64,000 nucleotides of DNA, taken from positions 1-64,000 of the forward strand of contig CAUYUJ010000169.1 of NCBI GenBank assembly GCA_963575745.1. Reading direction: 5' to 3'. Both the position numbers and the translations under genes were made by a program. Positions 5,004 to 64,000 of this stretch are shown here, piece by piece. Numbering within the stretch: the first letter of the stretch is position 1; the number at the start of each line of letters is the position of its first letter. This stretch comes from Prorocentrum cordatum. Lineage: Eukaryota. Under the pieces are notes generated by a model, which did not search any database, was not told the DNA's origin, and worked only from the letters and a program-made list of their open reading frames with translations.

Positions 5004-5431
5004 TTACGTTTTTCGTCGCGGCCCTGCGCGCGGCGGTGCGGCGTAGGCAGTCGAGCGGGAGCACGCGCGCGGCCGGGCCAGAGGGGGAGTGGGGACACAC
5101 ACAACACAACACCACACCACACCACACCACACCACACCACAACACAACACAACACAACACAACACAACACAACACAACACACACACACACACACACACGC
5201 GAGCAACGCAAAAGCACGGGGTCGTCTGCGCCGACATTGGCGCGGAAGCTGCCCGCCGAGGGTCGCGCGTAGGCGCCCTCGCTTCCGATGCAGCGTGTGG
5301 CGCGCGCGGCCCGCGTACGCCGCGGCGCAAGGTCGCTACGCCACCTCGCCCAAGACCGCTTTCTGATCGTCGCTCACATGATGCTGCCGTGCACCCATGA
5401 TTACGCACGATGTCTTCGGGCAGCGCACCCC

Positions 5432-5468
5432 TCCGCAGCCACTGTGGCTCAAGCCATCCTGGCCGAGG
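5432..5468 (+). other. Relict dinoflagellate spliced leader, full copy plus degenerate second relict
   Basis: TCCGCAGCCACTGTGGCTCAAG is 19/22 to DCCGTAGCCATTTTGGCTCAAG; the next 15 nt CCATCCTGGCCGAGG are 10/15 to the relict CCATTTTGGCTCAAG. Confidence 0.85.
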
Positions 5469-5907
5469 CGGAGCTCGCTCGCGCCGAAGTTGCGGGGGGT
5501 GGGCCCGCGACACGCCCGACGGGCCAGGTGTCCTTCCTTGGGCGGCGGCGCACCGAGGAGGCCCCGTGTAGGAGTCTTCGATCTTGGAGCCGGCTGGGGG
5601 TCGGAGGCGGCTGGGTATAGGCTCTGGCGAGCAGGAAGGGGGGGCGGGAATCAAGGCTCTGGGCGCGGGGAGGTTTCACTCATGCCCCTTTCGGTCTCCA
5701 GGGACCGTTCTTGGGCCTGGGGGCCATTCGAAAACGGAGCCGGGGCGAAAAGCTGCATGCCCAGGGACCGATCTTGGTCGGATTTGCCTTCGTCCCCCTT
5801 TGCTTGGTCGCTGTCCCTGGGGCCCCATCCAACCCGGACCCTCGGCCGCCCCCCAGCTTCGATCACGCAGCCTCCGCGCGAATGCTGGCGCCCTGCGCCG
5901 GGGCGCC

Positions 5908-8614
5908 ATGAGCTACCAGCGCCTCCTGGAGGCCGACGGGCGCCTGCTGGCCGTCCTGGAGGAGCGCCTCGCCGCCGCCGCCGCCGCCCGCGGCGGCGGC
6001 CGCGCCGACGCAGGCCACACCCAGCGCCAGAGCCTGGAGCCGGACCTCTCCGGCTCGGCGTGCTGGGAGGGGCTGGGCACCGCCGCCGCCCGCGGCGGCG
6101 GCCGCCCCGACGCAGGCCACACCCAGCGTCAGGGCCTAGAGCTGGACGTCTCCGGCTCGGCGCTCTGGGAGGGGCTGGGCACTGCCGCCGCCCGCGGCGG
6201 CGGCCGCGCCGACGCAGGCCACACCCAGCGTCAGGGCCTGGAGCCAGACCTCTCCGGCTCGGCGCTCTGGGAGGGGCTGGGCACCGCCGCCGCCCGCGGC
6301 GGCGGCCGAGCCGACGCAGGCCACGCCCCGCGCCAGGGCCTGGAGCCGGACCCCTTCGGCTCGCCGATCTGCCGCGCCCGGGAGCCGCCGGAGGAGTCCC
6401 CGCGGAGTTTCGCGAGCTCGCTGCCGCTGCCGACCGCGAGCGGAGGCGGCAGCGCTGGCGCGCAGGTGCGCCGCGGCGCGCACGCCGCGGGGCACCTGCA
6501 GGAGGCGCAGGAGGGTCGGGCGGGCGGCAACGGGGGGAGGACAAGAAGCGTGGGGCGGGGGGGTCGAAGGCTGCAGGAGGGTGGCTCTAAAGGTGCCCCA
6601 CTGAGCGGCCCCTGAGCTGCCACCGTGGGCCCAAGAGTTGCACCAGATCGCGCACGCTGCTTCGCCCCACGGCTCTTGCCCCCCCGCTGTCCGCGGGCAC
6701 GCCCGAGAGGGGATGCTGGCGCACGGGCGGCGCTTGAGGTCGGCGGAGCGGGCCAGCGGCGAGGCGGAGAGGTTCACAGAGTGCACGCACGGCGAGGCGG
6801 AGAGCGCCCGCAGGCGCTGGGAGCAGGCCTCGGAGCGTGCCGAGGGGGCCCACGGGGAGCAGCAGTGGCGTGCCCGCGAACGCGCGCAGCGGGCCCTGGA
6901 GGGCCAAGAGGCGGTCGTGGCAGAGGCCCTCGCCAGGAAGGTCCGCGCCCTGGAAGGGGCGCTCCACGGAGTGGCGGGCGCGCGCGAGGCGCTGGCCGCG
7001 CCGCCAGTCGAGGGGGCAGGAGCCGCAGTGGGCTGGCTAACAGCCGAGGCGAGAGCGCTGCGCGCCCTGGCGGGCGCCGACGCGCGCACAGTCGTCGGCG
7101 GCTGCCCGCAGCCGCCGAGCGAGCCGCGCGAAGCCCAGCGCCTGCAGGATCTGCTGGCGCGCGTCTTCGGGCGCCAGGCGGAGTTCGCGGCCAGGGCATG
7201 CTGGGGCGCGTGGAGGCGGTTGTCGCGGGAACGCGGGCACATGCAGGGGCTGCTGTTGCTCGCTGTCAGGTGCCAAGGGCGGCGCGCGGCCAGGTGGTGC
7301 TGGGGCGCCTGGGGGGTTGTGTCGCGTGAGGCCCAGTGGAGGCGGAAGCTGCAGGAGCGCGTGGCCGAGCACCACGGCAAGGCAGCGCGGCGTGCCTTCC
7401 TCGCCACATTTTGGGCAGCTTGGTTCAGCCTCCCGCGGGACGGCGGACGCAGGCACATGCTGGGACTGTTGGCGCACGCCATCAGGTGCCAAGAGCGGCG
7501 CGCGGCCAGGTGGTGCTGGGGCGCCTGGGTCGTTGTGTCGCGTGAGGCCCAGTGGAGGCGGAAGCAGCAGGAGCGCGTCGCCAAGCATCACGGCAAAGCA
7601 GTGCGGCGTGCCTTCCTCGCCACATTTTGGGCAGCTTGGTCCGGCCTCCCGCGGGACGGCCAGCTGTGGCAGGAGCGCCACCGCGTCATGAATTTGGTGT
7701 TGGTGGGCAGTTCCCTGGACCGGGACAAGATCTCCCGGAAGGAGCAGGAGGTTCTGTGGAGGTGCTGGCGCTGGGTCGTGGAGGGCCGGCGCAGGCGAGA
7801 GGCCTACCTCGTGCAAAGCTCGCGGTGGCAACTCTGCGGCTTCGCGCTGCGGTGCTGGCTGCTGTGGTCGGTGCCCACGCGTGCGAGACGCCAGCTGCGG
7901 CACCAGGGGCTCGCTGGGCCCCGCCTGGCCTTCTGCGGCGAGCCGACAGGCGAGGGATGGCAGGCGGCAGGGCAGCAGGTCTGGGCCTCCGGCGCCAAGC
8001 GGCGCCCGAGCGGCGCACTCGGCCCCAGCGGGGCGCGCGAAGGGCAGGCACCCCAGCTGGGCCCAGCACCCGAGGGGGGCCTGCGCGCACCGTCGGAGGA
8101 GGCCCTGGCGCAGGATCGCCTGCTGGTGGCAGAGGAGGCTCCACTGGCTCCGTGCCGTGCAGCACACTCGCGGGGCCGCCCGCACCTCGATGCGGCGCTC
8201 CCGGAGAGCCGGAGGCTCCCAGCGTCAAGCCACCCGGAGTGGAGGCGCACCTCTGTCTGCAGCGGCGGTTGGCAGAGCGCCGGCATCGCGGGGCCCGTGC
8301 CGCCCGCCTTGGCCTCCAGCGCGTGGAGCTTGGGGGCGGTCCCGGCAGGCCCAGAGCCAGCACCGCGCCCCGCGGCGCCCTCAACCGAGGGGGCGGGCGC
8401 AGAAGCGGTCGGGGCGGCGGCAGACTCGACAGCGATCGCCCCAGCCGATCCCAGCCTGGGAAGGGCCGCCGTCCCAGGCGGCCGAGCCAAGCCCGGCAGG
8501 CCCGCCCTGACCGTAGTGTGGCCTGCGTGGGGGCGGCAGGGGGGCGGCAGTACGGCCCAATCTCCCCACCCGGCGGCCGCCGTCAAGCATCGGCAGGGCG
8601 GCAGTCCAGCATGA
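5908..8614 (+). CDS. Coiled-coil / Trp-repeat (Sfi1-like) protein, intron-poor probable retrogene
   Basis: GCGCCATG start (MSYQRLLEADG); 102-bp tandem repeats; probable intron about 6511-6709 joining to the 6638-8614 frame; repeats RACWGAWRR, RWCWGAW, FLATFWAAW, LWRCWRW; 216-bp internal duplication. Confidence 0.6.
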
Positions 8615-34902: not shown

Positions 34903-35030
34903 AGCTTGGACCACCTCGGGGGAGGGGGGGCCGGTTTACCTTGGGCACCTCCCTTCGGGTTGTGTCGCCCGGGTGTTCTGTCCGGACACCAAGAAAATGG
35001 GAGGGGGGGCCGGCCGTGAGTAGCCCCAAG

Positions 35031-35437
35031 CCTGGCCGCGCATCCCCTCCTGGCTGAGCGAGAAGCAGCGGCTCTACTGCCAGACGCTCTTCGGCAAGGG
35101 CGTCCAGGGCTACCCAGTCCTCATGACCGAGACGCTGCGCGAGATGAGGAACTCGACCCCGCAAGTGGCCTTCGCAGGACGGTCCAACGTCGGTAAGTCC
35201 ACTCTGCTGAATAGTTTGATCCATCGCAGGCCAGACCCATTGCAGGGCCAATTTCTCGGCGAGAGGCGAAAGCTGAAGTCTCCCAAGGCAGCCCCAGTGT
35301 CCGACAAGCCTGGCCGCACCCGACACCTTTTCCGGTTCGAGCTGGGGGGCGAGGTCACTTTCGTGGACCTCCCAGGGTACGGCTACGCGCAGGTGTCCAA
35401 AAAGGTGAAGGAGGGCTGGGCCTCGCTGATCAATGAC
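35031..35437 (+). CDS. engB: EngB/YihA/YsxC-family GTP-binding protein, exon with G1-G3
   Basis: PQVAFAGRSNVGKSTLLNSL (G1), VSDKPGRTR (G2), FVDLPGYGYA (G3), then W..LI: diagnostic YihA pattern. Confidence 0.93.
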
Positions 35438-35531
35438 TCAAGAGGCTTACGCCATCTTCCGCCTGCCCCCTCCCGAAGGGAGAATGAACGAATGTATTGG
35501 TTTACACGTCCCGTATCTCAAAGAAAAAAAT

Positions 35532-35687
35532 CGGCATAAACGTAAACTTTTGGCGCTTCGCGCGGATTTCTTGGATCCGCGCTGGGGCCCCCCGCGCAGC
35601 CCCTGGCGCGCTCCGCGCGCCAGGGAGGAGAGTCCAGCGCGAATCCAAGAAATCCGCGCGGAGCGCCAAAAGTTTATGTTTATGCCG
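35532..35687. mobile_element. Foldback/MITE family C, best copy
   Basis: CGGCATAAACGTAAACTTTTGGCGC ... GCGCCAAAAGTTTATGTTTATGCCG with ~55-bp arms; partial copies at 39965-40090, 42405-42445, 42900-42975. Confidence 0.88.
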
Positions 35688-49974: not shown

Positions 49975-51172
49975 GTGTCATTCAAAACGAGTTCCCCACA
50001 CCCTCGATACCCGTTCTTCTGTCTTCGATCACGCCCCCGTTGGGGGAATTATTTCTCTCTGCGGGGGGCGGCGGGCTTAGACAGGTGGGCAAACCTGAAC
50101 GGGCGGACAATCCTTCGTGGGCGTACGCGTGCCCGCCATTGGAATTGGTGTGGGCCCTGCCAAAAAGAGGAGGGGGAGAACGAGGGAGAGTGGGAGGAAG
50201 GGGGGGGACGAAGTAAGAGGGAAAACGCCAGGAGAGAAGGAGCGAAGAGGAGGCGGTTGATTAGAGGCAGAGAGATATAGAAAGAGAGAGAGAGAGGAGA
50301 AAAAAGAGAGAGAGAGGGGAGAGAAAGAGAGAGAGAGAGAGAAAGAACAAGAAAGAGGGAGGGAGGAAGCAGGAGAGGGGAGGGAGAAGGGAGGAGGGAG
50401 AGGGGGGAGAGGGGATAGGGCAGAGAGGCATCAGGATGAGGGAAGACAGGAGAGAGAGAGAGAGAGAGAAGGGAGGAGAGGAGGGAGAAAGGAGGAGGGA
50501 GAGGGAGGAGGGGCAGGAACGTAAGAACGTGAACGTTCGAGGAAGTCCTAGGCGAAAGCGCCGCTCCTGAAGGAACCCCCCGGCGGGATCCCACGACGGG
50601 CGGGCGATCCCATGACGGGCGGGTCGGGCGGGTGGGACATTCAAGCGGGATGCTTGAGTATGGCGAGAGCGCGATTCCTACGTAAATTGTGACGGCGTCT
50701 TTGGCGCAGCGTGTTTCCTGAGCGTCGAAAGCGCGATTTCTCAATAAACTGCATGGCAACAGGCGAGAGCGCAACTCCTGAATAAAAGGGTTCTCTGGTG
50801 GGAGTGGGAGTCTTAATAAAATTACGAAGAAGTCCTGACTCAATTGCGAGGAAGTCTCAAGCGGGAGCGCCGTTCTTGAGTAAATTGTAAGGAAATCTCA
50901 GATGGGAGCGGGGGTCCTGACTAAATTGCGAGGAAGTCACAGGCGGGAACACCGATGTCTCAGGCGGGAGCGGGGGTCCTGAGTAAATTTGGAGGAAGTC
51001 TCCGGCGGGAGCCGTTGTTGTAATCCGGGGGGGCGAGGGGCCCAGTTTGAGCATCAATATTTTCCTTGTCAAAAACAGGGTGCGAGCGTCGACGGGCACA
51101 TGTTGATTTAGAAAAAAACAGTATGCACCGGTGGGGGGATCAACAACAATTATTCTGCAGAAATGAGAATTC

Positions 51173-51218
<46 letters not shown>

Positions 51219-53352
51219 GCAACAGCAACAACAACAACAACAGCAACAACAACAATCATTTTAAGACTGTTCGCTCTTACTCGCCCGCGCGCCATGCAAC
51301 GTGTATACCCACGCCCTCGATACCCGCCCCCTTCGTCTTCGAGCATACCCCCTTCTGGGGGGGATTTTTTCTTTTTGCGGGGGCGGGCGGGCTTAGACAA
51401 GCGGGCGTGAACGGGCGGAGAATTGTTCGGAGGATGGGGCACGCATCTCTTTGCCCACCATTGGAATTAGCGCGGGCCCTGCAATAAGAGGAAGGGGGAG
51501 AACGAGGGAGAGTGGGGGGAAGGGAAGGGGAGGGACGAGGCTAAAGGGGAACACGCCAGGAGAGAGGGGGCGAGGAGGGGGGGGGGGGACGATTGGAGAT
51601 AGAGAGACAGAAAGGGGAGGAAGGAGGAGGCTGGAAAGGGGAGGGCGAAGAGAGGAGGGAGGAGGGTTATGGGAGGAGGGTGAAGGGAGAGAGGAAGAGG
51701 GAGGAGGAGGGTGGATATGAGGGAGAGGGGAGGGAGGAGGGAGGTTGGATGGGGAGGAAGGGGCAGGAGGGTAAGAGTGTGAACGCTCGAGGAAGTCCTA
51801 GGCGAGGGCGTATTCCTCAAGGAAGAGTTGGCCGGGAGCGGGGGTCCCGAGTACATTGTCGGACGTCTCAGGCGGGAGCGCCTGTCGGGCGGGCGGACCC
51901 TGGCGGGCGGGTCGGGCGGGCGGGACATTCATACGGGATTTTTGTGTAAATTGCGAGGAGCGAGAGCGCGATTCCTAAGTAAATTGCGAGGGCGTCCTTG
52001 GCGCGAGCGTGGTTCCTGAGCGTCGAGAATGCGACGCTGCAATAAATTGCCAGGAAGTCCTAGGCGAGAGCGCCATTTCTGAATAAATTATGAGGAAGTC
52101 TCGGGCGGGAGCAGGGGTCCTGATTAAGGAAGTCTCAACCGGGAGCGCCGCTTCTGAGTAAAATGTGAGAAAGTCTAAAGCGGGAGCGCCCTTCCGGAAT
52201 AAATTGTGAGGAAGTCTCAGGCGGGAGCGGGGGTCCTGAGTAAATTGCGAGGAAGTCTCAGGCGGGAGCCGTTGTTGTTGTACTCCAGGGCCCAACAACG
52301 CAATCTGATCCGCAATGCTTTCCCTGTCAAAAAAAACAGGGTGCGAGCCCTGGAGGAAGCACTTCAATTGAAAAAACCAATGGGCACCGGACAGGGGGGA
52401 TCAACAATAATTATTCTTCAGAAATGAGAGTTCAACAACAACAGCAACAACCATTTTAAGGCTGTACGCTCTTACTTGCCCGCGAGTCATTCAACACGTA
52501 TACCCTACACCCTCGATGCCCGCCCTCTTCGTCTTCGATCACACCCCTTTCGGGGGGATTATTTATCTTCTGGGCCGGCGGCTTTAGACGTAGGGCAACA
52601 ACGGAACGGGCGGGACAAGACAATTTCCTTTTTTTTTTTGTTTTTTTTTCTTTTTTTTTTTTTTTTTTTTTTTTCTCTTTTTTTTTTCGGGGGCGTACAT
52701 CTCTCGGCCCGCCATTGGAATTGGCGCGGGCCTTGCAAGAGGAGGAGGGGAAGAACGAGGGAGAGTGGGAGGAAGGGGAGGGGGAAGGACGAAGGAAGAG
52801 GGAAGATACCACGTTGTGAAGGCGTCCTTGGCGCGCGCGTGGTTCCTGAGCGCCGAAACGCAATTCCAGAATAATTTGTGAGGACGTCTCACGCGAGAGC
52901 GCAGTCCTGAGTACATTGTGAGGAAATCTCAGGCGGAAGCGGGGGCCCTGACTAAGTTGCGAGGAAGTCTCAAGCGGGAGCGCCGTTCCTGAGCAAATTG
53001 CACGGAAGTCTCAGGCGGGAGCGGGGGTCCTCACTAAATTGCGAGGAAGTCTCAGGCGGGAGCGCCGTTCCTGAGTCAATCGCGCGGAAATGTCAGGCAG
53101 GAGCGGGGGTCCTGAGTAAAATCGCCGGGGGGGTGATTGATACATTGCGAGGAGTCTCAGGCGGGAGCGGGGGTCCTGAGTAAAAATCAAGGAAGTCTCA
53201 GGCGGGAGCCGTTGTTGTTGTAGCCCGGGGGGCAGGGGCACAGTTTGAGCAGGAAGACTTTCCTTGAGAAAAAGCAAGGTGCGAGCCCCGGGGGTGGCAC
53301 TTCAATCTAAAAAAATGAATGTGCACCGGTGGGGGGGATCAACAATAATTAT
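49975..53352. repeat. ~1.2-1.3-kb tandem repeat (about 2.7 copies) containing ~40-bp subunits CTGAGTAAATTGCGAGGAAGTCTCAGGCGGGAGCG
   Basis: Landmark GTCTTCGA.CA..CCCC at about 50021, 51335, 52531; GGGGGATCAACAA at about 51134, 52395, 53333. Confidence 0.85.
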
Positions 53353-53451
53353 TCACTGCGTGGGGATCCCCATATGTGCATATCCTTGCTGGCGCTCCCT
53401 TGGTGGTGGGACTCGGTGAGGACGAATCTGGATTTAAGTGTGACTGAGCTG

Positions 53452-53689
53452 CCTCTCTCTCTGCTCTCTCTGCTCTCTCTGTCTCTCTCTCTCTCTGCCC
53501 TCTCTCTGTCTCTGCCTCTCTTTCCCTGCCTCTCTCTCTCTCTGCCTCTCTCTCTGCCTCTGTCTCTCTGCTCTCTCTCTCTCTGCCTCTCTCTCTGTGC
53601 CTCTCTCTCTCTCTCTCTGCCTCTATCTCTGCCTCTCTCTCTCTCTCTCTCTCCTCTCTCTCTTCTCTCTATTATCTCTCTGCTCTCTC

Positions 53690-53720
<31 letters not shown>

Positions 53721-53870
53721 AGATCTGAGATACTCTATATTCCTTCCGTCTCTTTCTCTCTCTGTCTCTATTCTCTATCTCTCTCTATATTTCTCTCTCG
53801 CTCCATTCTCTCTCTCCTTCTCTCCCTCCTCCACTCAGCCCTCTCTCTCTTTCTCGCTCTCTCTCTCGCT

Positions 53871-53930
<60 letters not shown>
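53452..53930. repeat. (CT)n microsatellite, left flank of large element
   Basis: Visible; pure CT next to the element. Confidence 0.95.
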
Positions 53931-53933
<3 letters not shown>

Positions 53934-54071
53934 AGCACTCAGACCGCAGCCGCGACGCGAAGCGCCCCGCCTCGGAGTCAGTCTCCCAGGCCTCGCGAGA
54001 CCGGAGGGGTCCCAGCAGGACCCTACTGATTCGCGTCACCTCCTACCCCCCCCACCAGAGTGGCCGCCGCA

Positions 54072-56639
54072 ATGGCCCCCGCCAAGCCGGAGCGCCGCCG
54101 CTCTTCCAAGCAGCCGCCGAGCTCACGTCCTGCAGCTGAAGGGTCTCTCCTCCAACGCAAACAGGACTGCATTGCAGCTTTCAAGCAAGCGGGGTCTGAC
54201 CGCCCCACGGCCGCGTACAACGGGCTCGCCGAGCTGAACGCGGACGAGCTGCAGGCCACGTACGACATGCACAAGACCAACACAAAGAAGCTCGGCAGTG
54301 CCTTGATCCGCATGTGTGCCGCCAACCAGATCAGCTACACGCTGGAACACCACCAGCGCAGCAAGCCTAAGCGCATTGGTGGTGACACATCACACCCACC
54401 AGCTGCGTCCGCACGTCTTCAGGCTGCGGACGCCCAATTCATTGCCTTGGACCCGGCCTTCTGGAAGGTCCCAGTCCTGGCCGAACCCACCTCACTCGAT
54501 GACGGCAAGACGTACAAGCCCAGCATCAGCCTCCACGACTACGAGAGCGGTGAACGGCTGCTGCAGCACCATCTCGAGCAGGGTAAGCGTACCACGGGTC
54601 AGCTTGCGATTGCTGTCATGGGCCCCAAAAACGACAACTACGTCGGTACCGAGCTCGCCGTCCCCGTGCTGAAGCGTCACCCCAAGGCGCCCAAAGTGGT
54701 CCACACGCACGTCCCCGTGACCGTGTACCAGCTGGGCACCAAGGAAGTCGCCTGCACGGAAAAAGTAGCCGTCGCCACCATCGACCCTGCCGACCACGTA
54801 TGCTGGATTCGGGTGACCATACATGAAACCGAAGCCATCGCCGCAGTCCCCTCCAGGCATCAGGCCTTCGAGGATCAGTTTTCGGGAGGCGCCCCCGTGA
54901 ACGGTGGTCCACGCGCCAAGGGTCCTTTCCGAGGGGATTCCGCTCCACAGGACAAGGCGCGCCAAAACCAAAAGCACAGGGAGTCCAAGAAAGATGCTCG
55001 CCGCCAGGAGCTCGATAGTCAGCTCCAGGACACCTTCAAGGCCCTCTTCCACGGCAACTTTAAAGCCGTCACCATCCTCGAACCCTGCAAAAGCCTAGGC
55101 AGGTTTGGATCGGGCGTCGGAAAGAGGTCCCTGGCTGCCGCCTTCGGCGTCAGTCTTCAAGCGGTCGACAAGGTCTTGGCGGGTTCAGGGCAACTCGGCG
55201 CCACCTACGACCTCAGCAACGTAGGTGCAGACGAGCCCACTGCAGACAAGTACCAGACCGTGTGGTTCCCTGAGGACCAGCCCATCACGATGGCAGATGC
55301 GTTCCAGAAGTCGGTGGATTTCAAGGCCCTAGGAGTCGTCAGGCACGGCAAGTCAGGCTTTTTGGGGATCCGTGTTGCACGAGGGTCAGACGCCGCCAAG
55401 GCTGCTGCCGTCAGCATCCGCGGCTGTGAAGCCACCCTCGCCAAGACGCGATACCGCATTACTGGCATTGCGGCACGCCACGCCACGCTGACCCAGCTTG
55501 CTAAGACTCTCACAGGCCCGTCCGTCAAATGGGACTGTGAGGTCTACCACACCGCCTGGGACCCAGCCACTTCGGCTCAGTTTGCCTTAGTGCGCGCCCA
55601 TCGTCCCCCACCCACATATACGGTACAGGTCGCAGGGTGCCCCATCCCGTGGAGCATCACCGAGGCCCCGTTTGCTGAGGTGGTGCCGAAGAGGGACAAC
55701 GTTACCATTGTCACCCCTACCACTATCACAGAGCCTGCGACGCCGCCCGCCCGCGGTGGCGGCTTCAGCCCCGCCACGGGCACACTCCTAACCAAAGCGG
55801 CCCAGAGCCCCTACCTCCACGACCTCATGACTGCCACGCCCAAAGGCAAGGGCGTCGCACCGCTCCCGATCCCCAAGGAGGAGCCTCTAGCCAAGCGCCA
55901 CCGATCCTCCAGCGGGAAACGCGACGCCACGCCGCACGCAAGATCACACGGCGCCCCAGGCCGCAGCTCCTCTGCACCCCCGCACGGCACGGATGGAGCT
56001 GCCGAGCAGACGGCCGTCCAAGGACCAGGTGGGGACGGTCATGACCCGCAACCTGGCACGGTGGCGGCCGAAGGTGGGGGCCACACGGAAGGGCACGCTG
56101 ACGCAGCCGCCGAGGTACCAGGCGACGTCGAAATCCTATCATCAGAGGATGAATTCAGCGTGGCATCGCGCGAAGTGAACACCCTCGGCGAACGCTTCGC
56201 TATGGCCCCTAAACTGTCACATGCCGCTACGACCCGCATCCAACACATGGAACAACAGCACGAGCTGCTCGCCAACACGGTGGACAACATGCAGGTCCAG
56301 CTCGCGGGCGTTCTCTCATCCCAGGCCACACTCACGGAACACGTTTCAGGCTTGGAACGGGGGCTTGCCACCGTCGTCACTCAGCAACAGACGGCAACTA
56401 CCGGAGCTGCGGCACTGCGCGGCGACATCCAGGCCCTCCTCGGGCACCTCACGGGGGGTACCATCCACCTGCCCCAGGTGGCCACCCTCGAAACAAAAAA
56501 GGAGGAAGCTGCACCAGTTGCCGATCCCGTGGCGGTCTGCGGGTGGATCGACCAGCCAGGCCAGGTCACCCCAGGGACGGGGCCCCCAGGGGCTGACAAA
56601 GGCAAAGACAAGGGGCGGGTCACACAGGAACCCTATTGA
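54072..56639 (+). CDS. ORF1-like protein resembling those preceding RT in dinoflagellate LINE-type elements (855 aa)
   Basis: Intact intronless ORF; YQTVWFP..ALGVVRHG..LGIRV..YRITGI..W..LVRAHRPPP pattern recalled from such ORF1s; C-terminal coiled coil. Confidence 0.65.
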   Translation: MAPAKPERRRSSKQPPSSRPAAEGSLLQRKQDCIAAFKQAGSDRPTAAYNGLAELNADELQATYDMHKTNTKKLGSALIRMCAANQISYTLEHHQRSKPKRIGGDTSHPPAASARLQAADAQFIALDPAFWKVPVLAEPTSLDDGKTYKPSISLHDYESGERLLQHHLEQGKRTTGQLAIAVMGPKNDNYVGTELAVPVLKRHPKAPKVVHTHVPVTVYQLGTKEVACTEKVAVATIDPADHVCWIRVTIHETEAIAAVPSRHQAFEDQFSGGAPVNGGPRAKGPFRGDSAPQDKARQNQKHRESKKDARRQELDSQLQDTFKALFHGNFKAVTILEPCKSLGRFGSGVGKRSLAAAFGVSLQAVDKVLAGSGQLGATYDLSNVGADEPTADKYQTVWFPEDQPITMADAFQKSVDFKALGVVRHGKSGFLGIRVARGSDAAKAAAVSIRGCEATLAKTRYRITGIAARHATLTQLAKTLTGPSVKWDCEVYHTAWDPATSAQFALVRAHRPPPTYTVQVAGCPIPWSITEAPFAEVVPKRDNVTIVTPTTITEPATPPARGGGFSPATGTLLTKAAQSPYLHDLMTATPKGKGVAPLPIPKEEPLAKRHRSSSGKRDATPHARSHGAPGRSSSAPPHGTDGAAEQTAVQGPGGDGHDPQPGTVAAEGGGHTEGHADAAAEVPGDVEILSSEDEFSVASREVNTLGERFAMAPKLSHAATTRIQHMEQQHELLANTVDNMQVQLAGVLSSQATLTEHVSGLERGLATVVTQQQTATTGAAALRGDIQALLGHLTGGTIHLPQVATLETKKEEAAPVADPVAVCGWIDQPGQVTPGTGPPGADKGKDKGRVTQEPY

Positions 56640-56900
56640 AGGTGCCTCAGAGAGCCCGCCTCAGCCCTCCGAGGAAGCGCCTTCAGAGGCATCTCTTCTC
56701 ACTTCTCGTCGTGCCTCCTCCTTGCTATATCATGTCATTTTTGGCAGCAGCACGAGCAAGCTAGCTGGTGTAGGGACACCTGTCATCTTGCTGTGGGTGT
56801 GTTTGTTGCAATGTACATGAGCATGCAGGGGTACCTAAAGATGCGTGCTGACATGCAGCTTTTGGCTCATCGCTCGCGCCGCCCGCCAGGCCTCGCCATC

Positions 56901-58723
56901 ATGTGGCGCCTTGCCTGCAGCCTGGCCCTCCCCTCGCTCGCTGGAGCACACCCGTCTTCAGGAGGTGCGCCCCAGCATGGAGGTGAGTTTCTCCTGCGAC
57001 ACGCTGAACGTGGGACCCTTTTCTACCTCTACGATGACAGCATCTACAAGTACGATCACTGCACCATTTTGGACCCGATCGTGAACGGCACCGTTGCCGC
57101 GGGTCCGTGCGGCATAGGCCAGGCACACAGTGGCGGCTTCAGCCCCGCTGTTGTGCCCCGCTATCGCCCTACGGGTCTCACCACCCCCCTGTGCGCTAGG
57201 GGCGAACCCGAGGAGGACCCTGCTTTCTGGCACCTGATGATGATCCGCGCCCGGCTCATACCGTGTGCTGCGGCGTGGCACCAGGTGAGGACAACCAGGA
57301 CATGTTCTGGGCATGGCTCGAGGACTGCGTCCCGTACATCCTGGCGACGCTCCATCTGCCACAGTACGATCACCTCTTTCAGGAGGAGTCTGAGGACACA
57401 ACCGACGCCCTGCGTCAGCGCACCGCGGTCGACATGTGCGAGGACATCTGGCACAGAGCGGGCCCCGACAGGCGGCGCATCAACCGCAACCTCACTCGTA
57501 TCCAGAGCAGCCGCGAGTACGCCACCCGCTACTTTGGCTTCCTTCTGGAATACCAGGGCGCTCGTGCCACTCTCGTCGGCCCTGAGGCTTTCACGGCACC
57601 TTTGCCGCCATACCTCTCACGGGCCCATGCTCTGCTGCCAAGAGGCCTCCCTCCACCCGACCAAGACGCCATTGCGTACCTCGCCGACGTGATCCTGCAC
57701 CAACCGCCAGACATGCTGCCGCTCGTCGAGGCGGAGCTCGCCGCGGCGCCGATGGACGGCACCGATCAGGCCGCAGATGACCCTGTATCATGGCTGCTTC
57801 AGCACATCGCGGCCAGCGACATCGGCAACGCATCCATGGACTCGTTCCACGCGTCGGAAGATAGCCAGGACGGCATCGATACCCAGGATCGAGACGGCAC
57901 GATAGCACCAGGCAGCTCGGCCCAGAGTGACCGCAACAGTGAACCCTACTTTGGGCACACCTCGGGGCAAAGCAGTTCGCCCCACACCTCAGCTCAGGCC
58001 GACCCCAGCGCTCGGCTCAACGACGCTGAAGGCGTCACTGCCGCTGACGTGCCAAGCCATTACACTGCATCGCCAGCTCATGCCAGCCCGTGCAGTGGCG
58101 GCTTCAGCCCCGCTGCACCACTGGCTAGACCTGGACATCCCCAAACCGCAGGCGGCAGCACCACGCCCTTCACCTCCGTGCACCGCGACAGCGTGACTGA
58201 CTCCAACTCCAGTGCCACTGACCACGGGCAGGCCGACATCGACAACGATCCCATCGATGATGAGTACCCAGATGCCAGCGGTCCCCACGAGCCCCAGCAC
58301 AGCGCAGCGGCATCACGACACTGTGGCTGCCTCATCTGCCTCTTGGTGGCCACGTACGTCATCGCGATAGCAATGCCGTACAAGGACCAGATCGATGGGT
58401 ACTTGCCGACACCGAGCCGAGACCCCAGCTACAAACAACGACGACGACGCCAAGCGACGGCACCAGGCCCATCGGTGTCCACCACACCCCGACGCAAAAC
58501 GACATACAATGTCACGTCCACATTGAGGGCCACTCTCAAATGGACCAGCGTCAAACTCAGAGATAGCGTCTCGGGCGGAGCCACTGCAGTCGGGGTCGGC
58601 CTCGGGGGTGTCCTTAAATGGGCCAGCGGCAAGCTAGGGGCTATTGCCACGGGTGGAGTAGTGTGTGGTCTTCTACTCGTCGGTGCCAAACTTCTTGCCC
58701 AGGGAGCTGTCGGACACGTTTGA
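56901..58723 (+). CDS. ORF2: hypothetical, possibly membrane protein; one apparent frameshift near 57263
   Basis: MWRLACSLALPSLAGAH signal-like start, hydrophobic CLICLLVATYVIAIAM, Gly-rich hydrophobic C-terminus. Confidence 0.5.
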
Positions 58724-58822
58724 GCCCGCATCTGTGCGCGGGCCCTGGACTCATCCACTGCCCAGTGGTGCCTCCGCTGTTGCCAGCCGAGCAGGAGGCC
58801 GAGGGACGAGGTCACATACAAA

Positions 58823-61800
58823 ATGCCGTGCACGCTCGCCGACGAACACGACGACCAGCATGTGCACGCACTCCGACATCCGCTGCTACAGGAACACTAC
58901 GCCGCAGCAGTTGCCGCCGCAGTCGCCGACGTCACCACCGCCACCACCGCCGCCATCGTCGAAGTCACCGCCGCCGTATCGCGAGCCTCGTCTGTCACAC
59001 AAAGATCGACCAGCCCGACTCCACGAGACGGCTCCAAGAGCGGCGCCACATTCGGTAACCTACCGACTAACGAGGATGCCACAGCACACGGCAGCGACAC
59101 CGAGGCAAGGGAAACGCGTGAGCGCACCCATGATAGCCCGTGGTCTATCTTCCGACACGCTGACGCTCGTGGTTCATCCCCCGACGCGGACACCCACCCA
59201 CCACGACGGCGAGCACGCTATGCATCCCCCGACAGGCCCCAGGCGCCTTCAGGCCCTGGTATGCCTTACACTGCCCTCAAGCCACCGACACGCAACATAC
59301 GCAACACCATCCAGCGCGACCCTCGTCCTCCGAGAGGTAGGCGAGAGTAAGAGCCGAGAAGTCATAGCATTTCGAGTGAAGCTGGTCGAGGTGCGAGAAG
59401 TTCGTGTAAGATGAGTGAGTGTGTCGATTTGGGAAGAATGGAGAATAGGAGTCGATTTGGGAGAGAGTAGGTAACGAGGTTGGAAATTTGCGTAGCATTC
59501 GACTATGGGGGGAAGTGATCGAGGGTAAGTCAGCTAGCTGAGTGATTGCCCAGTAGCCGCCGAGGAGCATACTTAACGCCCTGTACCAAAACGGCTTTGC
59601 GCTAGGAAACAGTGGCGTGTCTACAGAGGACATCAACGACGCTCTACGACTCCACGACCATCCTCGATTCACTCATGATCCAACACTCCAAGCGCTGGGG
59701 CCGTGGACGGACATCATGCAGAGGCCACCGAACCGCCTCACTTGGTGCTGGAAGACTCGGGCGGGAACTCGGGCGAGACTATCTTCCCATACCTCACGTG
59801 GGACCTCCGCCAACCCATCTCCGACGCGCCCACTGTCTTCTGGCATGGGACCCGCGGCGACCTTGCGGCCCGTCTTGCTGCCAGTGGAGGGCACCTCTTG
59901 CCAGGCCCCCGCCGTGAAGCGAAGGGCCGAACTGGCCCCAACGTTGGCCGCACGTACGCGAGCGTGCACCCTTCGCTGGCCGCGTGGTACGCAATGCCGC
60001 CCCACCCGCCTTACAGTCTCGAAGATGACACCCTCGCGTGGGGACCCATCGCACTCTGGATGTGCGAGGCCACCCAACCACCGCGCGGGGAAAACAGGCA
60101 CAACGTTGTGAAAGGGGAGGCCCACGGAGCGCGTCTCATTTACCCTCGGGTCCTGAGCCTCCTCATCCGCATGGAATGGTGCGCCCCCACAGAAGCTGCT
60201 TCCAGGTGCCGTGCCCTACCACACGCCTATGGCATGGGCGACTGCGCGCACGCCCTTCACATCGCTGGCTACGATCATCCAGATCTCCGTGAGGCGGCTG
60301 AAGCTCACGACCAGGAGGCTAGCACCAGGCGCAGACCAGCCATCGCGGCAGCGTGGCCACCGCCGCAGGCACTATACTCGCCAGAGGCAGCGCGAGTATG
60401 GGCCAAACAGCACTACGACACGGAAGCAGCCACCAGGGATGACCCTAACCAGCCCCGCCCACGCGACTCGCTTCACATACTCCAGCTGGACCCGAAACCA
60501 CTCATCGACCTGGTGTACACTGGCTTGCAAGCTGTCCCCGTGCGGGGGCACCCTGACGCACGCGGGTCGCGCCCCAGCGGCTCCAGCCCTGGGGCCGCGT
60601 CGGGCCCTCCTCGCACGTACAAGTCAGGCACAGCCTTAGCGTACAGTCCAGACCGCTCATCGACGTCATCTGGAGTCGACGAACGCCGTACGCCTTCCCT
60701 CATCAGCGCGGCCGCCGCCCTCGCCCGAGGCCGTGCCCGTCCACGACGATCTGCCTCTCGCTCGTCACGACAGAGTGACGGGAACTCCACCTCAGACAAC
60801 CGCGGCATCGAGACGTGGGAGCACATTGTGACGGAGGAGGAGCCGACTGCCTACCACGTCCTCGCCTACCACGTTCGTGATGTGCGGTCCCGTGTCAACG
60901 CCCCTGGCATCGAGGTCTGGCTCGACCCTGGTGATCACCACGATGGCGCCTACTTACCGTGGGGGACGACAGTCATGGGCTACCGCGTCATTGACCCTAC
61001 GGTGGACGGGCGTGACGGCTGGGTCATCCTCCACCATGATCACGGCGACACCACTACTAGCTCTGGGCACCGACCCAAGTCCACGTTAAGGGGGACGACT
61101 CCTGGCGCACCGTCATGGTACCAGCGGATATGGGGCCCCAGTGGATCAGGTGCCATGCCGAGGACGCACGCCTCCCCGCCGAGGTTGTCCGCACTACAGG
61201 CCAATCCTGGTTTGCTGACGTCTGGCCCTTGTGGGATCGCCCGGGACCCCACCCAGACGACCCAGGCACAAACGAGCATGCGCTACCGCCTTTACCAGGA
61301 CGCTGGTCTTGCCTACAGTGTCGATTCCAATGCTGCCAATATTGCGCGGCTCGCCGCAACACACAGCTTGGCACCTCGGGCCAACCAACGTGCCCAGACT
61401 GCGTCCGCAGCGGACTGCGTACACTTATGGACTGGTCCACGGACTACTCGTGCAACAGTTGGACGTGTGCTTACAGCACCAACAACAGGGACTCCGACAC
61501 ATGCTGCCTGTCCAGCAGGTGCCCCCACCCCCCCAGGCCACACAACCTTCTCGACGTCCGTGCCACAGGGATGCCGCCGCACATCCTTGCCCGCCAATTC
61601 GGCAACGCGCCAGCCCTTCACGACCTCAAGGAACCCCCCCGAGCGCCTTCAGGCCCCGGGGGGGAACCTCCACAACCAGGGAAAGCAGGCTACCAGGGTC
61701 AATGGTACTTCCCACCGCAGCCGCGGCGCGTCCCCAGGCAGGGACTGCCTGACGGCACAAGGCGGCCACCTGGATTCACAGGAACGGGGATGCCCGAAGA

Positions 61801-63463
61801 ACCTTCCCTCGACCAACCGCTTTGGAGGGAAGGCTTCGTGCTCTTCAGTCCCCACCAGGCCCTCAAGGAGGAACTCGCCTTCAACAAGACGGTCCGCCGA
61901 CCCTACTCCCTAGCCATTACTAACATGTACAGGGATCGTGTCACGGTCAGGACCGTCTGCGAGTTGATCGCTGAGCGCATCCACATTACCCGCACCCGTT
62001 GGCGAGATGTGGTACTGTACTGGGACGCCGAGGGTGGTCCTGGGCCTCAGGCCCTCGACTACGGCATCGACCTCGGGCTCATCGGGCCCATCGCGGAGGA
62101 GTTCAATCGTCAGGCTGACGCCCTCGCCACAACGGCGGCACGTACTCATAACCTTCCAGACGACATTGTCGAAGCTGCCAAATCACGACATCGCCAAGCG
62201 ACCGTGCTGCATGGAGTCGCTGTCGCCATCTACGAGCGTAGACACCGTACACTCCCCCTCCCACACCGCAGGCCTGGGTTCACAGCTGCGGAACTCAACA
62301 AAATGGAACCAAATCCCCTGCTGTCTGACCAGGCACCACCCGCGGCTGGACCAGACATCCCACAGAACCCGGACGCGCTCTGGGCCGAGGCCCAACGGGC
62401 GATATTCGACGAACAGGAGGACGACCCGTTCGGCTTTGGTGGGGGCCTGGACTTCCTGGGCGACGGGCCAGCCAGCGCCAACCCTGCCCCGTCGGTTACC
62501 CGCACGGCGCCCCCGACTCCGCCATTGAGAGCGGCAGCGCACCCACATGACAACGCCGCTCATTTTCAAGACGCTGACGAACAGGAGGATGACCTGTTCA
62601 GCTTCGGTGGGGGATCGGACGCTTTGGACGACGGACCAGCCAGCGAAAACCCCGCCCCGTCGGGAAACCTCTCGATCCCTACTGCGACTCCGTCCCCGAG
62701 AGCGATATCGCCCACATACGATGATATCGGCCACCGCCAAGACGCCGACCATGACCTGGGTGACCCCCGCGGACTGAGTGGCATGGAGGACGCACCGCCG
62801 ATACCACACGCTGCCGACCATGCCGCCCTACCGAGACGCCAACCTTCTACGCGACCGACCTCAGAACCCTTGCACGGCATCACGACTGGTCCCACCGCGC
62901 AAACCACTCCGCCCCCCCACCGCCGGCAGCCCGCGGGGGCGGCTTCAGCCCCCCCGCAGGGTACTAAACCAGACAGGCCCTCGTGCCCCATCCACGCTTC
63001 CATCGTTGCTGTGCGAGAGGAAGCGGCTCTCCCGACCTCTCGGGGCGTGGCCCTAGCGGCTCCAGCCCTGGGGTCGCGTCGGCCCCTCCAGTCACCCTTC
63101 AAGGGTGACGGACGTCAGCGTACAGGGACCCGCACTACGCTAGTCCACCATTTGGACAGGCGTACCGAGGACCTCGCCTCTGTCTCGAGGCCCTCGGCTG
63201 CTGGCACTGAGCAGCCACCCCGCACCGACCGCGAAACCGAGCTGTCACAGGCTATGGCTGCCCTCCAGCAGAGGTGCTTAGCTCTCGCCGCGGACCTCGC
63301 CGCCGCCCAAGCTCGTCAAGGCCCTCTTCTCCAGCGCCTCCACAGTGCTGGGCGAGCCTTCGCCGAGCTGCTCACGGCCTCGCCCGATGGTGCCGTGCCG
63401 ACACTCAACATCCAAGCCATGTTGTCATCGTTCCGCGGCGCTCCACCTGGTGCCCCGCGCTAA
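58823..63463 (+). CDS. ORF3: interrupted multidomain protein (PARP-like ART motifs, Cys-rich Zn fingers, ubiquitin-like segment, acidic repeats, coiled coil)
   Basis: Overlapping frames 58823-59350, about 59556-59700, 59703-about 61120, 61115-63463 each read as protein-like in turn. Confidence 0.55.
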
Positions 63464-63830
63464 TCTCCTCCTTTCTGCCTGCCCGTGTGTACGCGTGGCT
63501 CCGCGTCCACGGTGTCAGGGCGCGGGGGCGGGGGGTGCCCCGTCACTGCGCGCCGCTTAGCGGCCAAGCGCCCAACTGGCGGTCTGCCAAGCCGCCTAGC
63601 CACGTGTCAGCACGTCGCCTTTCTTGTTGGGGCCTCTTTCTTTACGCGGTCTGACAGGTGAGATCATCATCGTCTGTCCGCCGTCTGTAGCGTCTGTCGC
63701 ACTGCGCCGGGGGAGGGTTTTTTTGTTGCCCGCCCTCGTATCTAAAGGCTGCACCGCCGCAAATAGTGCATGCGAGTTGTCGCACTGCAGTGCGCCTCGC
63801 GGACGGACCCTGGTCCGCCTACTTGTCCGA

Positions 63831-63852
63831 TCTCTCTCTCTCTCTCTCTCCT

Positions 63853-63907
<55 letters not shown>

Positions 63908-63942
63908 TATAATATATAATATATATCTTCCTCTGCTCTCTC

Positions 63943-63984
<42 letters not shown>

Positions 63985-64000
63985 CCCTCCCCCCTCTCTC
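63831..64000. repeat. (CT)n microsatellite, right flank or tail
   Basis: Visible. Confidence 0.95.

What the first reader, a model, noticed from the sequence alone, without database searches (positions are those of the whole stretch)
53931..63830. 9.9-kb (CT)n-embedded element with LINE-ORF1-like gene, no RT, and large cargo ORFs
Seen: a 9.9-kb block unlike the rest of the window (no microsatellites, no MITEs, all long ORFs on +), starting and ending abruptly at pure (CT)n, with no TIRs, LTRs or poly(A). No RT YxDD, APE or RLE motif is visible in any listed frame. Known: some Tx1-clade non-LTR elements target TC repeats, and HAL1 elements encode only ORF1p and move in trans. Inference: a young, microsatellite-targeting, HAL1-like non-autonomous retroelement whose pol was replaced by effector-like cargo; I know no description of this architecture in dinoflagellates.
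Basis: partly seen in the sequence, partly recalled or inferred. Interest (0 to 1): 0.85.

Follow-up and report, generated by a model that had tools for sequence, protein, structure and literature searches.

The report
RT-less LINE derivative in (CT)n repeats
This 9.9-kb block is one damaged copy of a very abundant, recently multiplied retrotransposon-like element that sits in CT microsatellites and has lost its reverse transcriptase by an internal deletion, so it probably spreads using enzymes from a relative.

Summary
A 9.9-kb block with no internal repeats lies between (CT)n arrays. It has no LTRs, TIRs or poly(A), and no Pfam domain in any frame.

It is a repeat family, not a single-copy host locus. 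In one sequencing run 48,159 contigs lay on it, 16,619 of them at 99% identity or more.

ORF1 (855 aa) is intact and conserved. Its differences from another copy are 33 synonymous to 7 non-synonymous. A weak model gives it an RRM-like fold plus a coiled coil.

The "cargo ORFs" are pieces of one roughly 2,100-aa ORF2. In this copy it is broken by three 1-nt deletions, one stop codon and a 232-nt replacement.

At window ~62065, ORF2 joins a truncated upstream domain to the last motif of an RNase H. Relatives carry a whole RNase H there, preceded by a zf-RVT-like finger. In two runs, contigs diverge on both sides of this point, which shares a 5-nt microhomology.

So pol was most likely deleted, not replaced by cargo. 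No sequence containing both the upstream ORF2 modules and an RT was recovered, so that link is inferred.

The 3' (CT)n tail has interruptions shared between copies, and one contig shows copies head to tail.

Verdict: a new variant of a known kind, namely a non-autonomous, microsatellite-associated LINE derivative.

The parts
53449..53931 (.). Upstream imperfect (CT)n array with TGC interruptions. Presumed target microsatellite, not part of the element.
   Evidence: Nothing upstream of it resembles the element.
53932..54071 (+). 5' UTR. Sequence shared with other copies starts at about 53936. This copy lacks the first 18-23 nt (AGTCTCGGCTCGAGAGTG...) that follow (CT)n in other copies.
   Evidence: L002. 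Loose ends before 53931 in X1 (22), X2 (4) and X10 (1).
54072..56639 (+). ORF1, 855 aa, intact. It has an N-terminal helical domain, an RRM-like region at about residues 390-540, and a coiled coil at about 717-794.
   Evidence: 7 homologues at 25-99% identity by the best local alignment; 6 of them align at 41-86% over the full length. Against another copy: 33 synonymous, 7 non-synonymous codon differences. Model pLDDT 43.9. RRM matches at Z 6-7.7.
56811..57276 (+). ORF2 segment A. First ATGs lie at 56811-56853. It ends at a 1-nt deletion after 57276.
   Evidence: +G after 57276 in other copies.
57278..58723 (+). ORF2 segment B, with two hydrophobic TM-like stretches (58307-58387 and 58625-58714). 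TGA at 58721-58723 is GGA in another copy, where the frame stays open.
58724..59322 (+). ORF2 segment C, in the same frame as B.
   Evidence: L001 frame 1 is open throughout. tblastn of P0008.
59323..59554 (+). 232-nt piece that other copies replace with about 11 nt (AGCGGTCCCCG). It breaks the frame here. No GT-AG boundaries restore the frame.
   Evidence: Joints and loose ends.
59557..59743 (+). ORF2 segment D. It ends at a 1-nt deletion (GG versus GGG).
59745..61058 (+). ORF2 segment E, with no recognisable domain. It ends at a 1-nt deletion after 61058.
61061..62065 (+). ORF2 segment F1. It contains a Cys-rich zinc-finger-like module at about 61270-61500 and a conserved C-terminal domain that is cut short at the breakpoint.
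   Evidence: P0009, P0014, P0021, P0026, P0030, P0033 and P0034.
62063..62067 (+). Deletion joint. GGCAT is shared by both parental sides, and relatives diverge on both sides of it.
   Evidence: Loose ends at 62063 and 62067 in X10 and X9. Sequence.
62066..63463 (+). ORF2 segment F2: the last RNase H motif (NRQAD) and a conserved helical tail, then acidic DDPFGFGGG repeats, a Pro-rich region and a C-terminal coiled coil. Stop codon at 63461-63463.
63464..63831 (+). 3' UTR with a precise end (...CTACTTGTCCGAT), 93% identical to another copy.
   Evidence: The predicted fold is no better than shuffles (z -1.49).
63832..63908 (+). (CT)n 3' tail whose interruptions (CTTTTCT..., CTTTCT) are shared with another copy. 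Treated as part of the element.
63909..64000 (.). A 21-nt AT-rich stretch, then more imperfect (CT)n running off the window. Presumed remainder of the target array.

Best explanation
The block is one dead copy of a high-copy, recently amplified, non-autonomous derivative of a non-LTR (LINE-type) retrotransposon.

Its layout is 5' UTR, ORF1, ORF2, 3' UTR, then a (CT)n tail. ORF1 is a putative RNA-binding, multimerising protein. ORF2 is about 2,100 aa in this deleted form.

An internal, microhomology-flanked deletion at window ~62065 removed the pol core. The lost part runs from the end of an upstream domain through the presumed endonuclease and RT to most of the RNase H. The conserved RNase H tail, the C-terminal region, the 3' UTR and the tail were kept.

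Inferred mechanism. The RNA is transcribed and coated by its own ORF1p. A related autonomous element supplies endonuclease and RT in trans, which copy the RNA into DNA by target-primed reverse transcription. The (CU)n 3' tail pairs with nicked (CT)n/(AG)n microsatellite DNA. This would explain the CT flanks on both sides and the head-to-tail copies.

Shown: multicopy status, recent amplification, constraint on ORF1, the lesions in this copy, the RNase H remnant, and RNase H plus a zf-RVT-like finger in relatives.

Inferred: the deletion happened within a single ancestral element, an RT partner exists in this genome, and the element moves by target-primed reverse transcription into (CT)n.
For: - Multicopy and young. 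X1 had 48,159 contigs laid, at 16,619/19,836/10,611/1,093 in the identity bands 99+/95-99/90-95/<90%. X2 had 4,035, X10 648 and X9 432. 20 of 24 listed runs from 15 studies hold 18-68% of its 31-mers.
- ORF1 is real and constrained. It has 7 homologues. Against L002 over 481 codons there are 33 synonymous and 7 non-synonymous differences, with changes by codon position of 2/4/36.
- ORF2 is one gene. L001 is open in one frame across window 58661-60302. P0009 bridges 61058.
- The window's three frameshifts are 1-nt deletions relative to other copies, shown as depth with the extra base over total depth:
  - +G after 57276: X1 1027/2417, X2 5825/8876, X10 40.9/40.9, X9 14.2/14.2.
  - +G after 59743: X1 2281/6465, X2 3168/5728, all depth in X10 and X9.
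  - +A after 61058: X1 1716/3477, X2 2713/2713, X10 27.5/34.9, X9 11/17.9.
- Retroelement ancestry. A phmmer search with window 61061-63460 found 50 proteins at E<=1e-3. Many match only from query residue ~333, which is the joint.
- Of 26 of those proteins scanned, 7 hit RNase_H PF00075 just upstream of the joint. 5 are above the cut-off (P0040, P0036, P0038, P0054, P0042) and 2 below (P0012, P0058). P0040 and P0058 also hit zf-RVT below the cut-off.
- P0012 is 63-73% identical to the window's tail and has a whole RNase H.
- The P0040 model matches human RNase H1 by Foldseek at E 5.6e-8.
- The ESM Atlas places P0040 residues 1-440 beside clusters carrying RVT_1 (10% of members) and zf-RVT (39-63%), at scores 0.93-0.94 (a lead only).
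- Deletion joint. Loose ends at 62063 and 62067 in both X10 and X9 read EKVASHQGDM| on one side and |RLCDAMVSRA on the other. These match P0010/P0012 and P0030/P0009 respectively. GGCAT is shared by both sides.
- LINE-like ends. There are no LTRs or TIRs. The 3' end is precise and the CT tail has interruptions shared between copies. The 5' end here is short by 18-23 nt. L002 shows 3' end, about 90 nt of CT, then a 5' end.
- ORF2 pieces also show a third-position excess against L001: 16/7, 4/2 and 8/7 synonymous/non-synonymous.
Against: - No RT or endonuclease was seen in any sequence proven to belong to the same element as ORF1 or the upstream ORF2 modules.
- The RT-proximal relatives with zf-RVT (P0040, P0058) are only 29-39% identical in the tail, and their zf-RVT hits are below Pfam's cut-off.
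- RVT_1 itself did not hit P0040 even at E<=10, and the RT part of its model is low-confidence.
- About half of the X1 depth shares each frameshift. Copies with a dead ORF2 have therefore multiplied, which DNA-level duplication explains as easily as trans-mobilisation.
- Most copies share one 5' end after (CT)n instead of showing the scattered 5' truncations typical of LINEs.
- The upstream ~1,700 aa of ORF2 match no known LINE domain.
- No target-site duplication can be read in a microsatellite.
Confidence: 0.62

Rival explanations
1. A satellite-like unit amplified at the DNA level. On this view a dead LINE-derived 10-kb unit with its (CT)n spacer multiplied by unequal crossing-over or segmental duplication, without retrotransposition.
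For: L002 shows a 3' end, about 90 nt of CT, then a 5' end, i.e. head to tail. The CT spacer's interruptions are inherited between copies. Roughly half of the X1 depth carries each ORF2 frameshift. Most copies share the same 5' end.
Against: The window copy is preceded by unrelated DNA and by a 480-nt CT array of a different structure. Its 5' junction also differs from that of L002. ORF1 and parts of ORF2 show a synonymous excess between copies, which implies selection on coding capacity during divergence. Related forms with different internal deletions exist, such as P0019.
Confidence: 0.2
2. A chimera. On this view unrelated 'cargo' genes were fused by recombination or template switching to the 3' part of a LINE. 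The element then hijacks that LINE through the shared 3' end, and the cargo was never part of a pol-bearing ORF2.
For: No sequence in hand carries both the pre-joint modules and an RT/RNase H. The pre-joint 1,700 aa match no LINE domain. The 5-nt microhomology also fits template switching.
Against: Both kinds of continuation across the joint occur in the same two runs, X9 and X10. The reading frame is kept across the joint. Relatives of the pre-joint modules are themselves repeated and diverged, at 33-79% identity, like element genes.
Confidence: 0.12
3. An endogenous viral element, or an ordinary host gene pair in a tandem gene array.
For: The ORFs have no known families. There are two TM-like segments. 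The sequence is present in many metagenomes. Tandem arrangement and one-strand gene order are common in some protists; this last point is recalled, not tested.
Against: No capsid, polymerase or integrase was found. The element carries an RNase H remnant with zf-RVT-bearing relatives. There are hundreds of diverged variants per position and disabling lesions.
Confidence: 0.05

Closest known systems
HAL1 ('half-a-LINE') and other internally deleted, ORF1-retaining non-autonomous LINE derivatives. This comparison is recalled; one search gave a search listing only and no paper was read.
   Same: It lacks RT, keeps an intact ORF1, is multi-copy, and is presumed to be mobilised in trans by a related autonomous LINE.
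   Different: It is not L1-derived: there is no Transposase_22 hit. At 9.9 kb it is far larger. It keeps about 2,100 aa of ORF2, including the RNase H tail and C-terminal region. It has a (CT)n tail instead of poly(A).
Microsatellite-targeting APE-type LINEs: Kibi (TC)n, Koshi (TTC)n, Mino (AC)n, Waldo (ACAY)n and Dong (TAA)n (PMC3812793; passages read).
   Same: Copies are embedded in a specific microsatellite. Here that is TC/CT, as for Kibi.
   Different: Those elements are autonomous, come from animals, and are placed by RT phylogeny. This element has no RT to place, and its relatives carry an RNase H and a long C-terminal tail. Clade membership is untestable here.
RNase H-bearing non-LTR retrotransposons with a zinc finger after the RT (the Pfam zf-RVT plus RNase_H architecture).
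   Same: Relatives P0040 and P0058 show zf-RVT followed by RNase H followed by a tail homologous to the window's ORF2 C-terminus.
   Different: The window copy keeps only the last RNase H motif. The conserved helical extension after RNase H and the acidic DDPFGFGGG repeats are not features I know from described clades; that statement is from recall.

Membership tests
Autonomous non-LTR retrotransposon (LINE) | Reverse transcriptase domain encoded by the element | tested here: not met
   No RVT_1 or any other Pfam family in the 6 long ORFs or in 70 of the 75 frames of 70 aa or more on both strands.
Autonomous non-LTR retrotransposon (LINE) | Endonuclease (APE or restriction-like) | tested here: not met
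   No Exo_endo_phos or RLE-type hit. No PDB sequence hit. Fold-level tests of ORF2 were not done.
Autonomous non-LTR retrotransposon (LINE) | No LTRs or TIRs, a defined 3' end with a simple-repeat or poly(A) tail | tested here: met
   No terminal repeats. Precise 3' end plus a (CT)n tail with interruptions shared between two copies.
Non-autonomous LINE derivative (HAL1-like in the functional sense) | Descent from a pol-bearing LINE, with a pol remnant | tested here: met
   The last RNase H motif and tail are retained. Relatives have a whole RNase H (7 of 26 scanned, 5 above the cut-off) and zf-RVT (2 of 26, below the cut-off). Breakpoint with loose ends on both sides.
Non-autonomous LINE derivative (HAL1-like in the functional sense) | Intact ORF1 retained, and many copies | tested here: met
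   ORF1 is open for 855 aa, with 33 synonymous and 7 non-synonymous differences against L002. 48,159 contigs laid in X1.
Non-autonomous LINE derivative (HAL1-like in the functional sense) | An autonomous partner in the same genome that shares ORF1 or the 3' end | not testable with these tools
   No genome is held for the window. Undeleted forms were seen only as loose ends in X9 and X10.
L1-type ORF1p (Pfam Transposase_22) | Sequence match to the family; coiled coil, RRM and CTD architecture | tested here: not met
   No Pfam hit. An RRM-like fold at residues 456-540 scores only Z 6-7.7 on a model of pLDDT 43.9. The coiled coil lies C-terminal to the RRM, not N-terminal; the L1 domain order is recalled. 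Foldseek found nothing at E<=1e-3.
Kibi / Tx1-group (TC)n-specific LINEs | RT phylogeny within the clade; APE endonuclease; insertion in (TC)n | tested here: inconclusive
   (CT)n flanks are present on both sides. There is no RT or APE available to place the element.
   One 21-mer with 3 mismatches at 5433-5453, with 0 of 100 shuffles reaching it. The 15-mer core with 2 mismatches is reached in 22 of 100 shuffles. No other marker was tested.

The most novel reading that the evidence does not exclude
The family may represent a LINE lineage whose ORF2 carries about 1,700 aa of extra modules upstream of pol. These modules are maintained by selection and include two membrane-spanning-like segments, a Cys-rich finger and a small conserved domain. 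None is known from any described retrotransposon.

On this reading the RT-less form is a successful parasite of that lineage. It has kept exactly these modules plus ORF1 because they act in cis, for example in RNP assembly or trafficking or in recognition of (CT)n targets. It would be the dominant young repeat of a protist genome in which LINEs are otherwise described as ancient relics.
Probability: 0.15. Interest if true: 0.75.

Novelty: new variant of a known kind. Interest (0 to 1): 0.45.

Why it matters
If the reading is right, a 10-kb element without a polymerase has become one of the most abundant young repeats in its host. It would provide a natural system for asking what a LINE RNA needs in cis to be copied by another element's enzymes: ORF1, the RNase H tail, the 3' UTR and a microsatellite tail.

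It also flags about 1,700 aa of conserved ORF2 protein with no known relatives.

There is a practical point as well. Its contigs are mis-binned into a bacterial MAG and are annotated there as bacterial hypothetical proteins.

Tried and rejected
- Whole-genome census: impossible, because no genome is held for the window.
- MAG G001: only two contigs belong to the family. Its 9 RVT_1 hits lie on 55-58% GC contigs that gave no tblastn hit to the nine family proteins tried. The two whose RT frames were read look like bacterial group II intron/retron-type RTs, which is my reading from recall. P0012 was not found there.
- Earlier findings of the scan: nothing.
- ESM Atlas for ORF1: best score 0.76, not informative.
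- PDB sequence searches of ORF2 pieces: nothing below E 0.1.
- NCBIfam and PHROGs: nothing.
- PARP-like idea: a recalled resemblance of 'FWHGTRG...' at about 59900 to a PARP motif found no support in Pfam or PDB and is dropped.
- The 232-nt piece as an intron: no GT-AG pair restores the frame (by eye). DNA contigs without it exist. It is treated as an indel.
- 3' UTR structure: z -1.49, with 15 of 200 shuffles folding as well, so there is no evidence for a special fold.
- No RNA holder was listed among the runs, so nothing can be said about expression.
- Depth per bin comes from contigs and cannot rank parts of the element. The higher last bin and the lower 59221-59551 bin are not used as evidence.
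- The X10 joint 55775->63477 rests on one contig with a 21-nt side and is ignored.
- Literature searches (listings only, apart from passages of PMC3812793 and PMC8045281) turned up no description of this family. This is not an exhaustive check.

Full report
**Observation**

The block is as described. Pure (CT)n ends at 53931 and restarts at about 63831. Tandem Repeats Finder finds no array between them. A self-comparison on both strands shows no LTR or TIR, and the block has no similarity to the other 53 kb of the window. There is no poly(A).

The window is 50-75% GC in 2-kb windows, and the block about 63%. Minus-strand ORFs of up to 212 aa are therefore unremarkable, and every ORF of 249 aa or more is on the + strand.

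No Pfam family matched the six long ORFs at E<=0.1. Scanning 70 of the 75 stop-to-stop frames of 70 aa or more on both strands at E<=0.01 also gave nothing relevant. The 5 frames left out lie mostly in the CT flanks. The only row was a below-cut-off Atrophin-1 match on a minus-strand frame over the CT flank.

**It is a very abundant, young repeat family**

No genome is held for the window, so I used public runs.

- 20 of 24 listed runs, from 15 studies, hold 18-68% of the block's 31-mers. They include three coded organisms and marine, freshwater, estuary, urban and salt-lake metagenomes.
- I laid four runs on the block; all are kept as contigs. X1 may be the source sample. It gave 48,159 contigs, split 16,619/19,836/10,611/1,093 across the identity bands 99+/95-99/90-95/<90%.
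- X2 gave 4,035 contigs, X10 gave 648 and X9 gave 432.
- The listed X1 contigs are only 106-160 nt long. That number of them on 9.9 kb implies several hundred sequence variants per position. This figure is my inference and is not a copy number.
- A bacterial MAG (handle G001) holds two mis-binned contigs of the family at 95-97% identity.

Single-copy host synteny is therefore excluded.

**ORF1**

ORF1 runs from 54072 to 56639 (855 aa) and is intact.

- It has 7 homologues, at 25-99% identity by the best local alignment. Six of them align at 41-86% over the full length. They share its start (MAPxxxxxRR...) and its end (...PY).
- Against contig L002 over 481 codons there are 33 synonymous and 7 non-synonymous codon differences. 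Changes by codon position are 2/4/36. The gene has therefore evolved under purifying selection.
- It has no Pfam, NCBIfam or PHROGs match.
- An AlphaFold model from the 7-sequence alignment is poor overall (pLDDT 43.9) but moderate at residues 26-97 and 390-530. It predicts a long helix at 717-794.
- A search of 48,161 PDB representatives that does not depend on Foldseek returned almost only RRM domains for residues 456-540, at Z 6.1-7.7. Some tandem-RRM entries reached back to about residue 390.
- Foldseek found nothing at E<=1e-3, although its top rows are also RRMs.

An RNA-binding domain plus a coiled coil is what LINE ORF1 proteins are made of (recalled). This is a lead and does not establish membership.

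**The "cargo ORFs" are one broken ORF2**

- MAG contig L001 is open in one frame across the equivalent of window 58661-60302.
- Protein P0009 bridges 61058.
- Three frame changes in the window are 1-nt deletions relative to many other copies, shown as depth with the extra base over total depth:
  - +G after 57276: X1 1027/2417, X2 5825/8876, all depth in X10 and X9.
  - +G after 59743: X1 2281/6465, X2 3168/5728, all depth in X10 and X9.
  - +A after 61058: X1 1716/3477, X2 2713/2713, X10 27.5/34.9, X9 11/17.9.
- The TGA at 58721 is GGA in L001.
- The 232 nt at 59323-59554 are replaced by about 11 nt in L001 and in contigs of X1, X2 and X9.

Read through, ORF2 would run from an ATG at 56811-56853 to the stop at 63461-63463. 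That is about 2,100 aa. This copy is dead in ORF2.

About half of the X1 depth shares each frameshift, so defective lineages have themselves multiplied. Even so, ORF2 pieces compared with L001 show a third-position excess: 16/7, 4/2 and 8/7 synonymous/non-synonymous.

ORF2 contains two hydrophobic TM-like stretches, a Cys-rich module and a small conserved domain. It matches nothing in Pfam, NCBIfam, PHROGs or PDB sequences.

**The missing pol**

I ran a full phmmer search of window 61061-63460 against 1.84 billion representative proteins. It found 50 proteins at E<=1e-3.

- One group matches only upstream of query residue ~334. Its members (P0009, P0026, P0030, P0033, P0034) run on for about 80 aa more of the same domain, which the window lacks.
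- A second group matches only from residue ~333 onwards. Immediately upstream these proteins carry an RNase H.
- 7 of the 26 proteins scanned hit PF00075, 5 of them above the curated cut-off. P0040 and P0058 also hit zf-RVT, the zinc finger that follows the RT in non-LTR elements, but below its cut-off.
- P0012 is 63-73% identical to the window's tail and has a complete RNase H. The window keeps only the last motif...AEEFNRQADALA.
- A model of P0040 is confident in this part and matches human RNase H1 at Foldseek E 5.6e-8 with TM 0.68-0.74.
- The N-terminal 340 aa of P0040 contain ...FIDD... followed by motifs that I recognise from memory as LINE RT palm motifs.
- The ESM Atlas places P0040 residues 1-440 beside clusters carrying RVT_1 (10%) and zf-RVT (39-63%), at scores 0.93-0.94 (a lead).
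- Pfam RVT_1 itself did not hit P0040, and that part of the model is unreliable.

In runs X10 and X9, contigs leave the window sequence on both sides of 62063-62067. One continuation reads |RLCDAMVSRA and matches the first group. The other reads EKVASHQGDM| and matches the RNase H end of the second group. The five bases GGCAT are common to both sides.

The simplest reading is a microhomology-mediated internal deletion, or a template switch, that removed the pol core. No well-supported loose end at this point was listed for X1 or X2, which suggests that the deleted form dominates there. This is a weak inference because the table was cut.

I have no single sequence that contains both the upstream ORF2 modules and an RT. 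The alternative, that two different elements were joined, therefore stays open.

**Ends and target**

- The 3' end is precise (...CTACTTGTCCGAT) in both the window and L002.
- The CT tract that follows shares the same interruptions in both copies. At least its first ~75 nt therefore travel with the element.
- In L002, about 90 nt of CT lead straight into the 5' end of another copy. That 5' end starts AGTCTCGGCTCGAGAGTG..., and the same start follows (CT)n in 22 X1, 4 X2 and 1 X10 loose ends.
- The window copy lacks these 18-23 nt.
- The window copy is preceded by a 480-nt imperfect CT array with TGC interruptions, and before that by unrelated DNA. Similar imperfect CT sequence resumes after the tail.

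This pattern fits insertion into a pre-existing CT array by target-primed reverse transcription, with the (CU)n tail pairing to the nicked target. It also resembles the (TC)n-specific Kibi LINEs of fish (PMC3812793; passages read). Tandem amplification at the DNA level is not excluded.

**Host**

The only pointer to a dinoflagellate is a 21-mer at 5433-5453 with 3 mismatches to the spliced leader. 0 of 100 shuffles reach it. The 15-nt core with 2 mismatches is reached in 22 of 100 shuffles.

LINEs of the dinoflagellate genomes compared in PMC8045281 are described as ancient and highly diverged (passages read). If the host is such an organism, a family with many copies at 99% identity or more would stand out. 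I could not test this.

**Verdict**

This is a real element and its description was correct. Its nature is a non-autonomous, (CT)n-associated LINE derivative that lost pol by internal deletion. It did not swap pol for cargo. It is a new variant of a known kind.

Its unusual points are its size, its abundance, and a long ORF2 of unknown function that shows a synonymous excess between copies.

Noticed in passing
window 5433-5453 (+): CCGCAGCCACTGTGGCTCAAG matches 18 of 21 positions of the dinoflagellate spliced leader (0 of 100 shuffles reach this). It lies just inside the start of a 397-aa ORF (5397-6590). It may be a relict of a retroposed, trans-spliced mRNA.
   Followed up: partly
window 50832-50948, 52127-52269, 52865-53120: Three arrays of one 41-nt minisatellite (consensus ...GAGTAAATTGCGAGGAAGTCTCAGGCGGGAGCGCCG...) lie just upstream of the CT array.
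   Followed up: no
window 35024-35536 (+): This is the only clear host-type domain in the rest of the window, among the 119 of 176 frames of 140 aa or more that were scanned: MMR_HSR1 GTPase, E 8e-13, above the cut-off. It is probably one exon of a host gene.
   Followed up: no
G001 contigs C329 (L002) and C731 (L001/L003): Two short contigs of a bacterial MAG are 95-97% identical to this eukaryotic repeat and are annotated there as bacterial hypothetical proteins (P0003, P0008). This is a binning artefact of a GC-rich, high-copy element.
   Followed up: partly
whole element (runs X1-X20): Runs labelled marine, freshwater, estuary, urban and salt-lake metagenome hold 18-43% of the element's 31-mers. 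The one freshwater run that was laid has 61 contigs at 99% identity or more. This could reflect a cosmopolitan host, several hosts, or carry-over between data sets; which one is not resolved.
   Followed up: partly
window 62408-62495 and 62576-62663: An 88-nt internal direct repeat at 82% identity encodes the acidic DDxFxFGGGxD motif twice. The motif recurs in distant relatives P0012, P0015, P0058 and P0010.
   Followed up: no
P0019 (relative): This is another RT-less variant. Unrelated sequence is joined to ...IASHLDDDGIDEG..., a different breakpoint inside the RNase H end. It suggests repeated independent deletions that all keep the tail.
   Followed up: no
window 52629-52687: A 59-nt T-rich run between the minisatellite arrays.
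   Followed up: no
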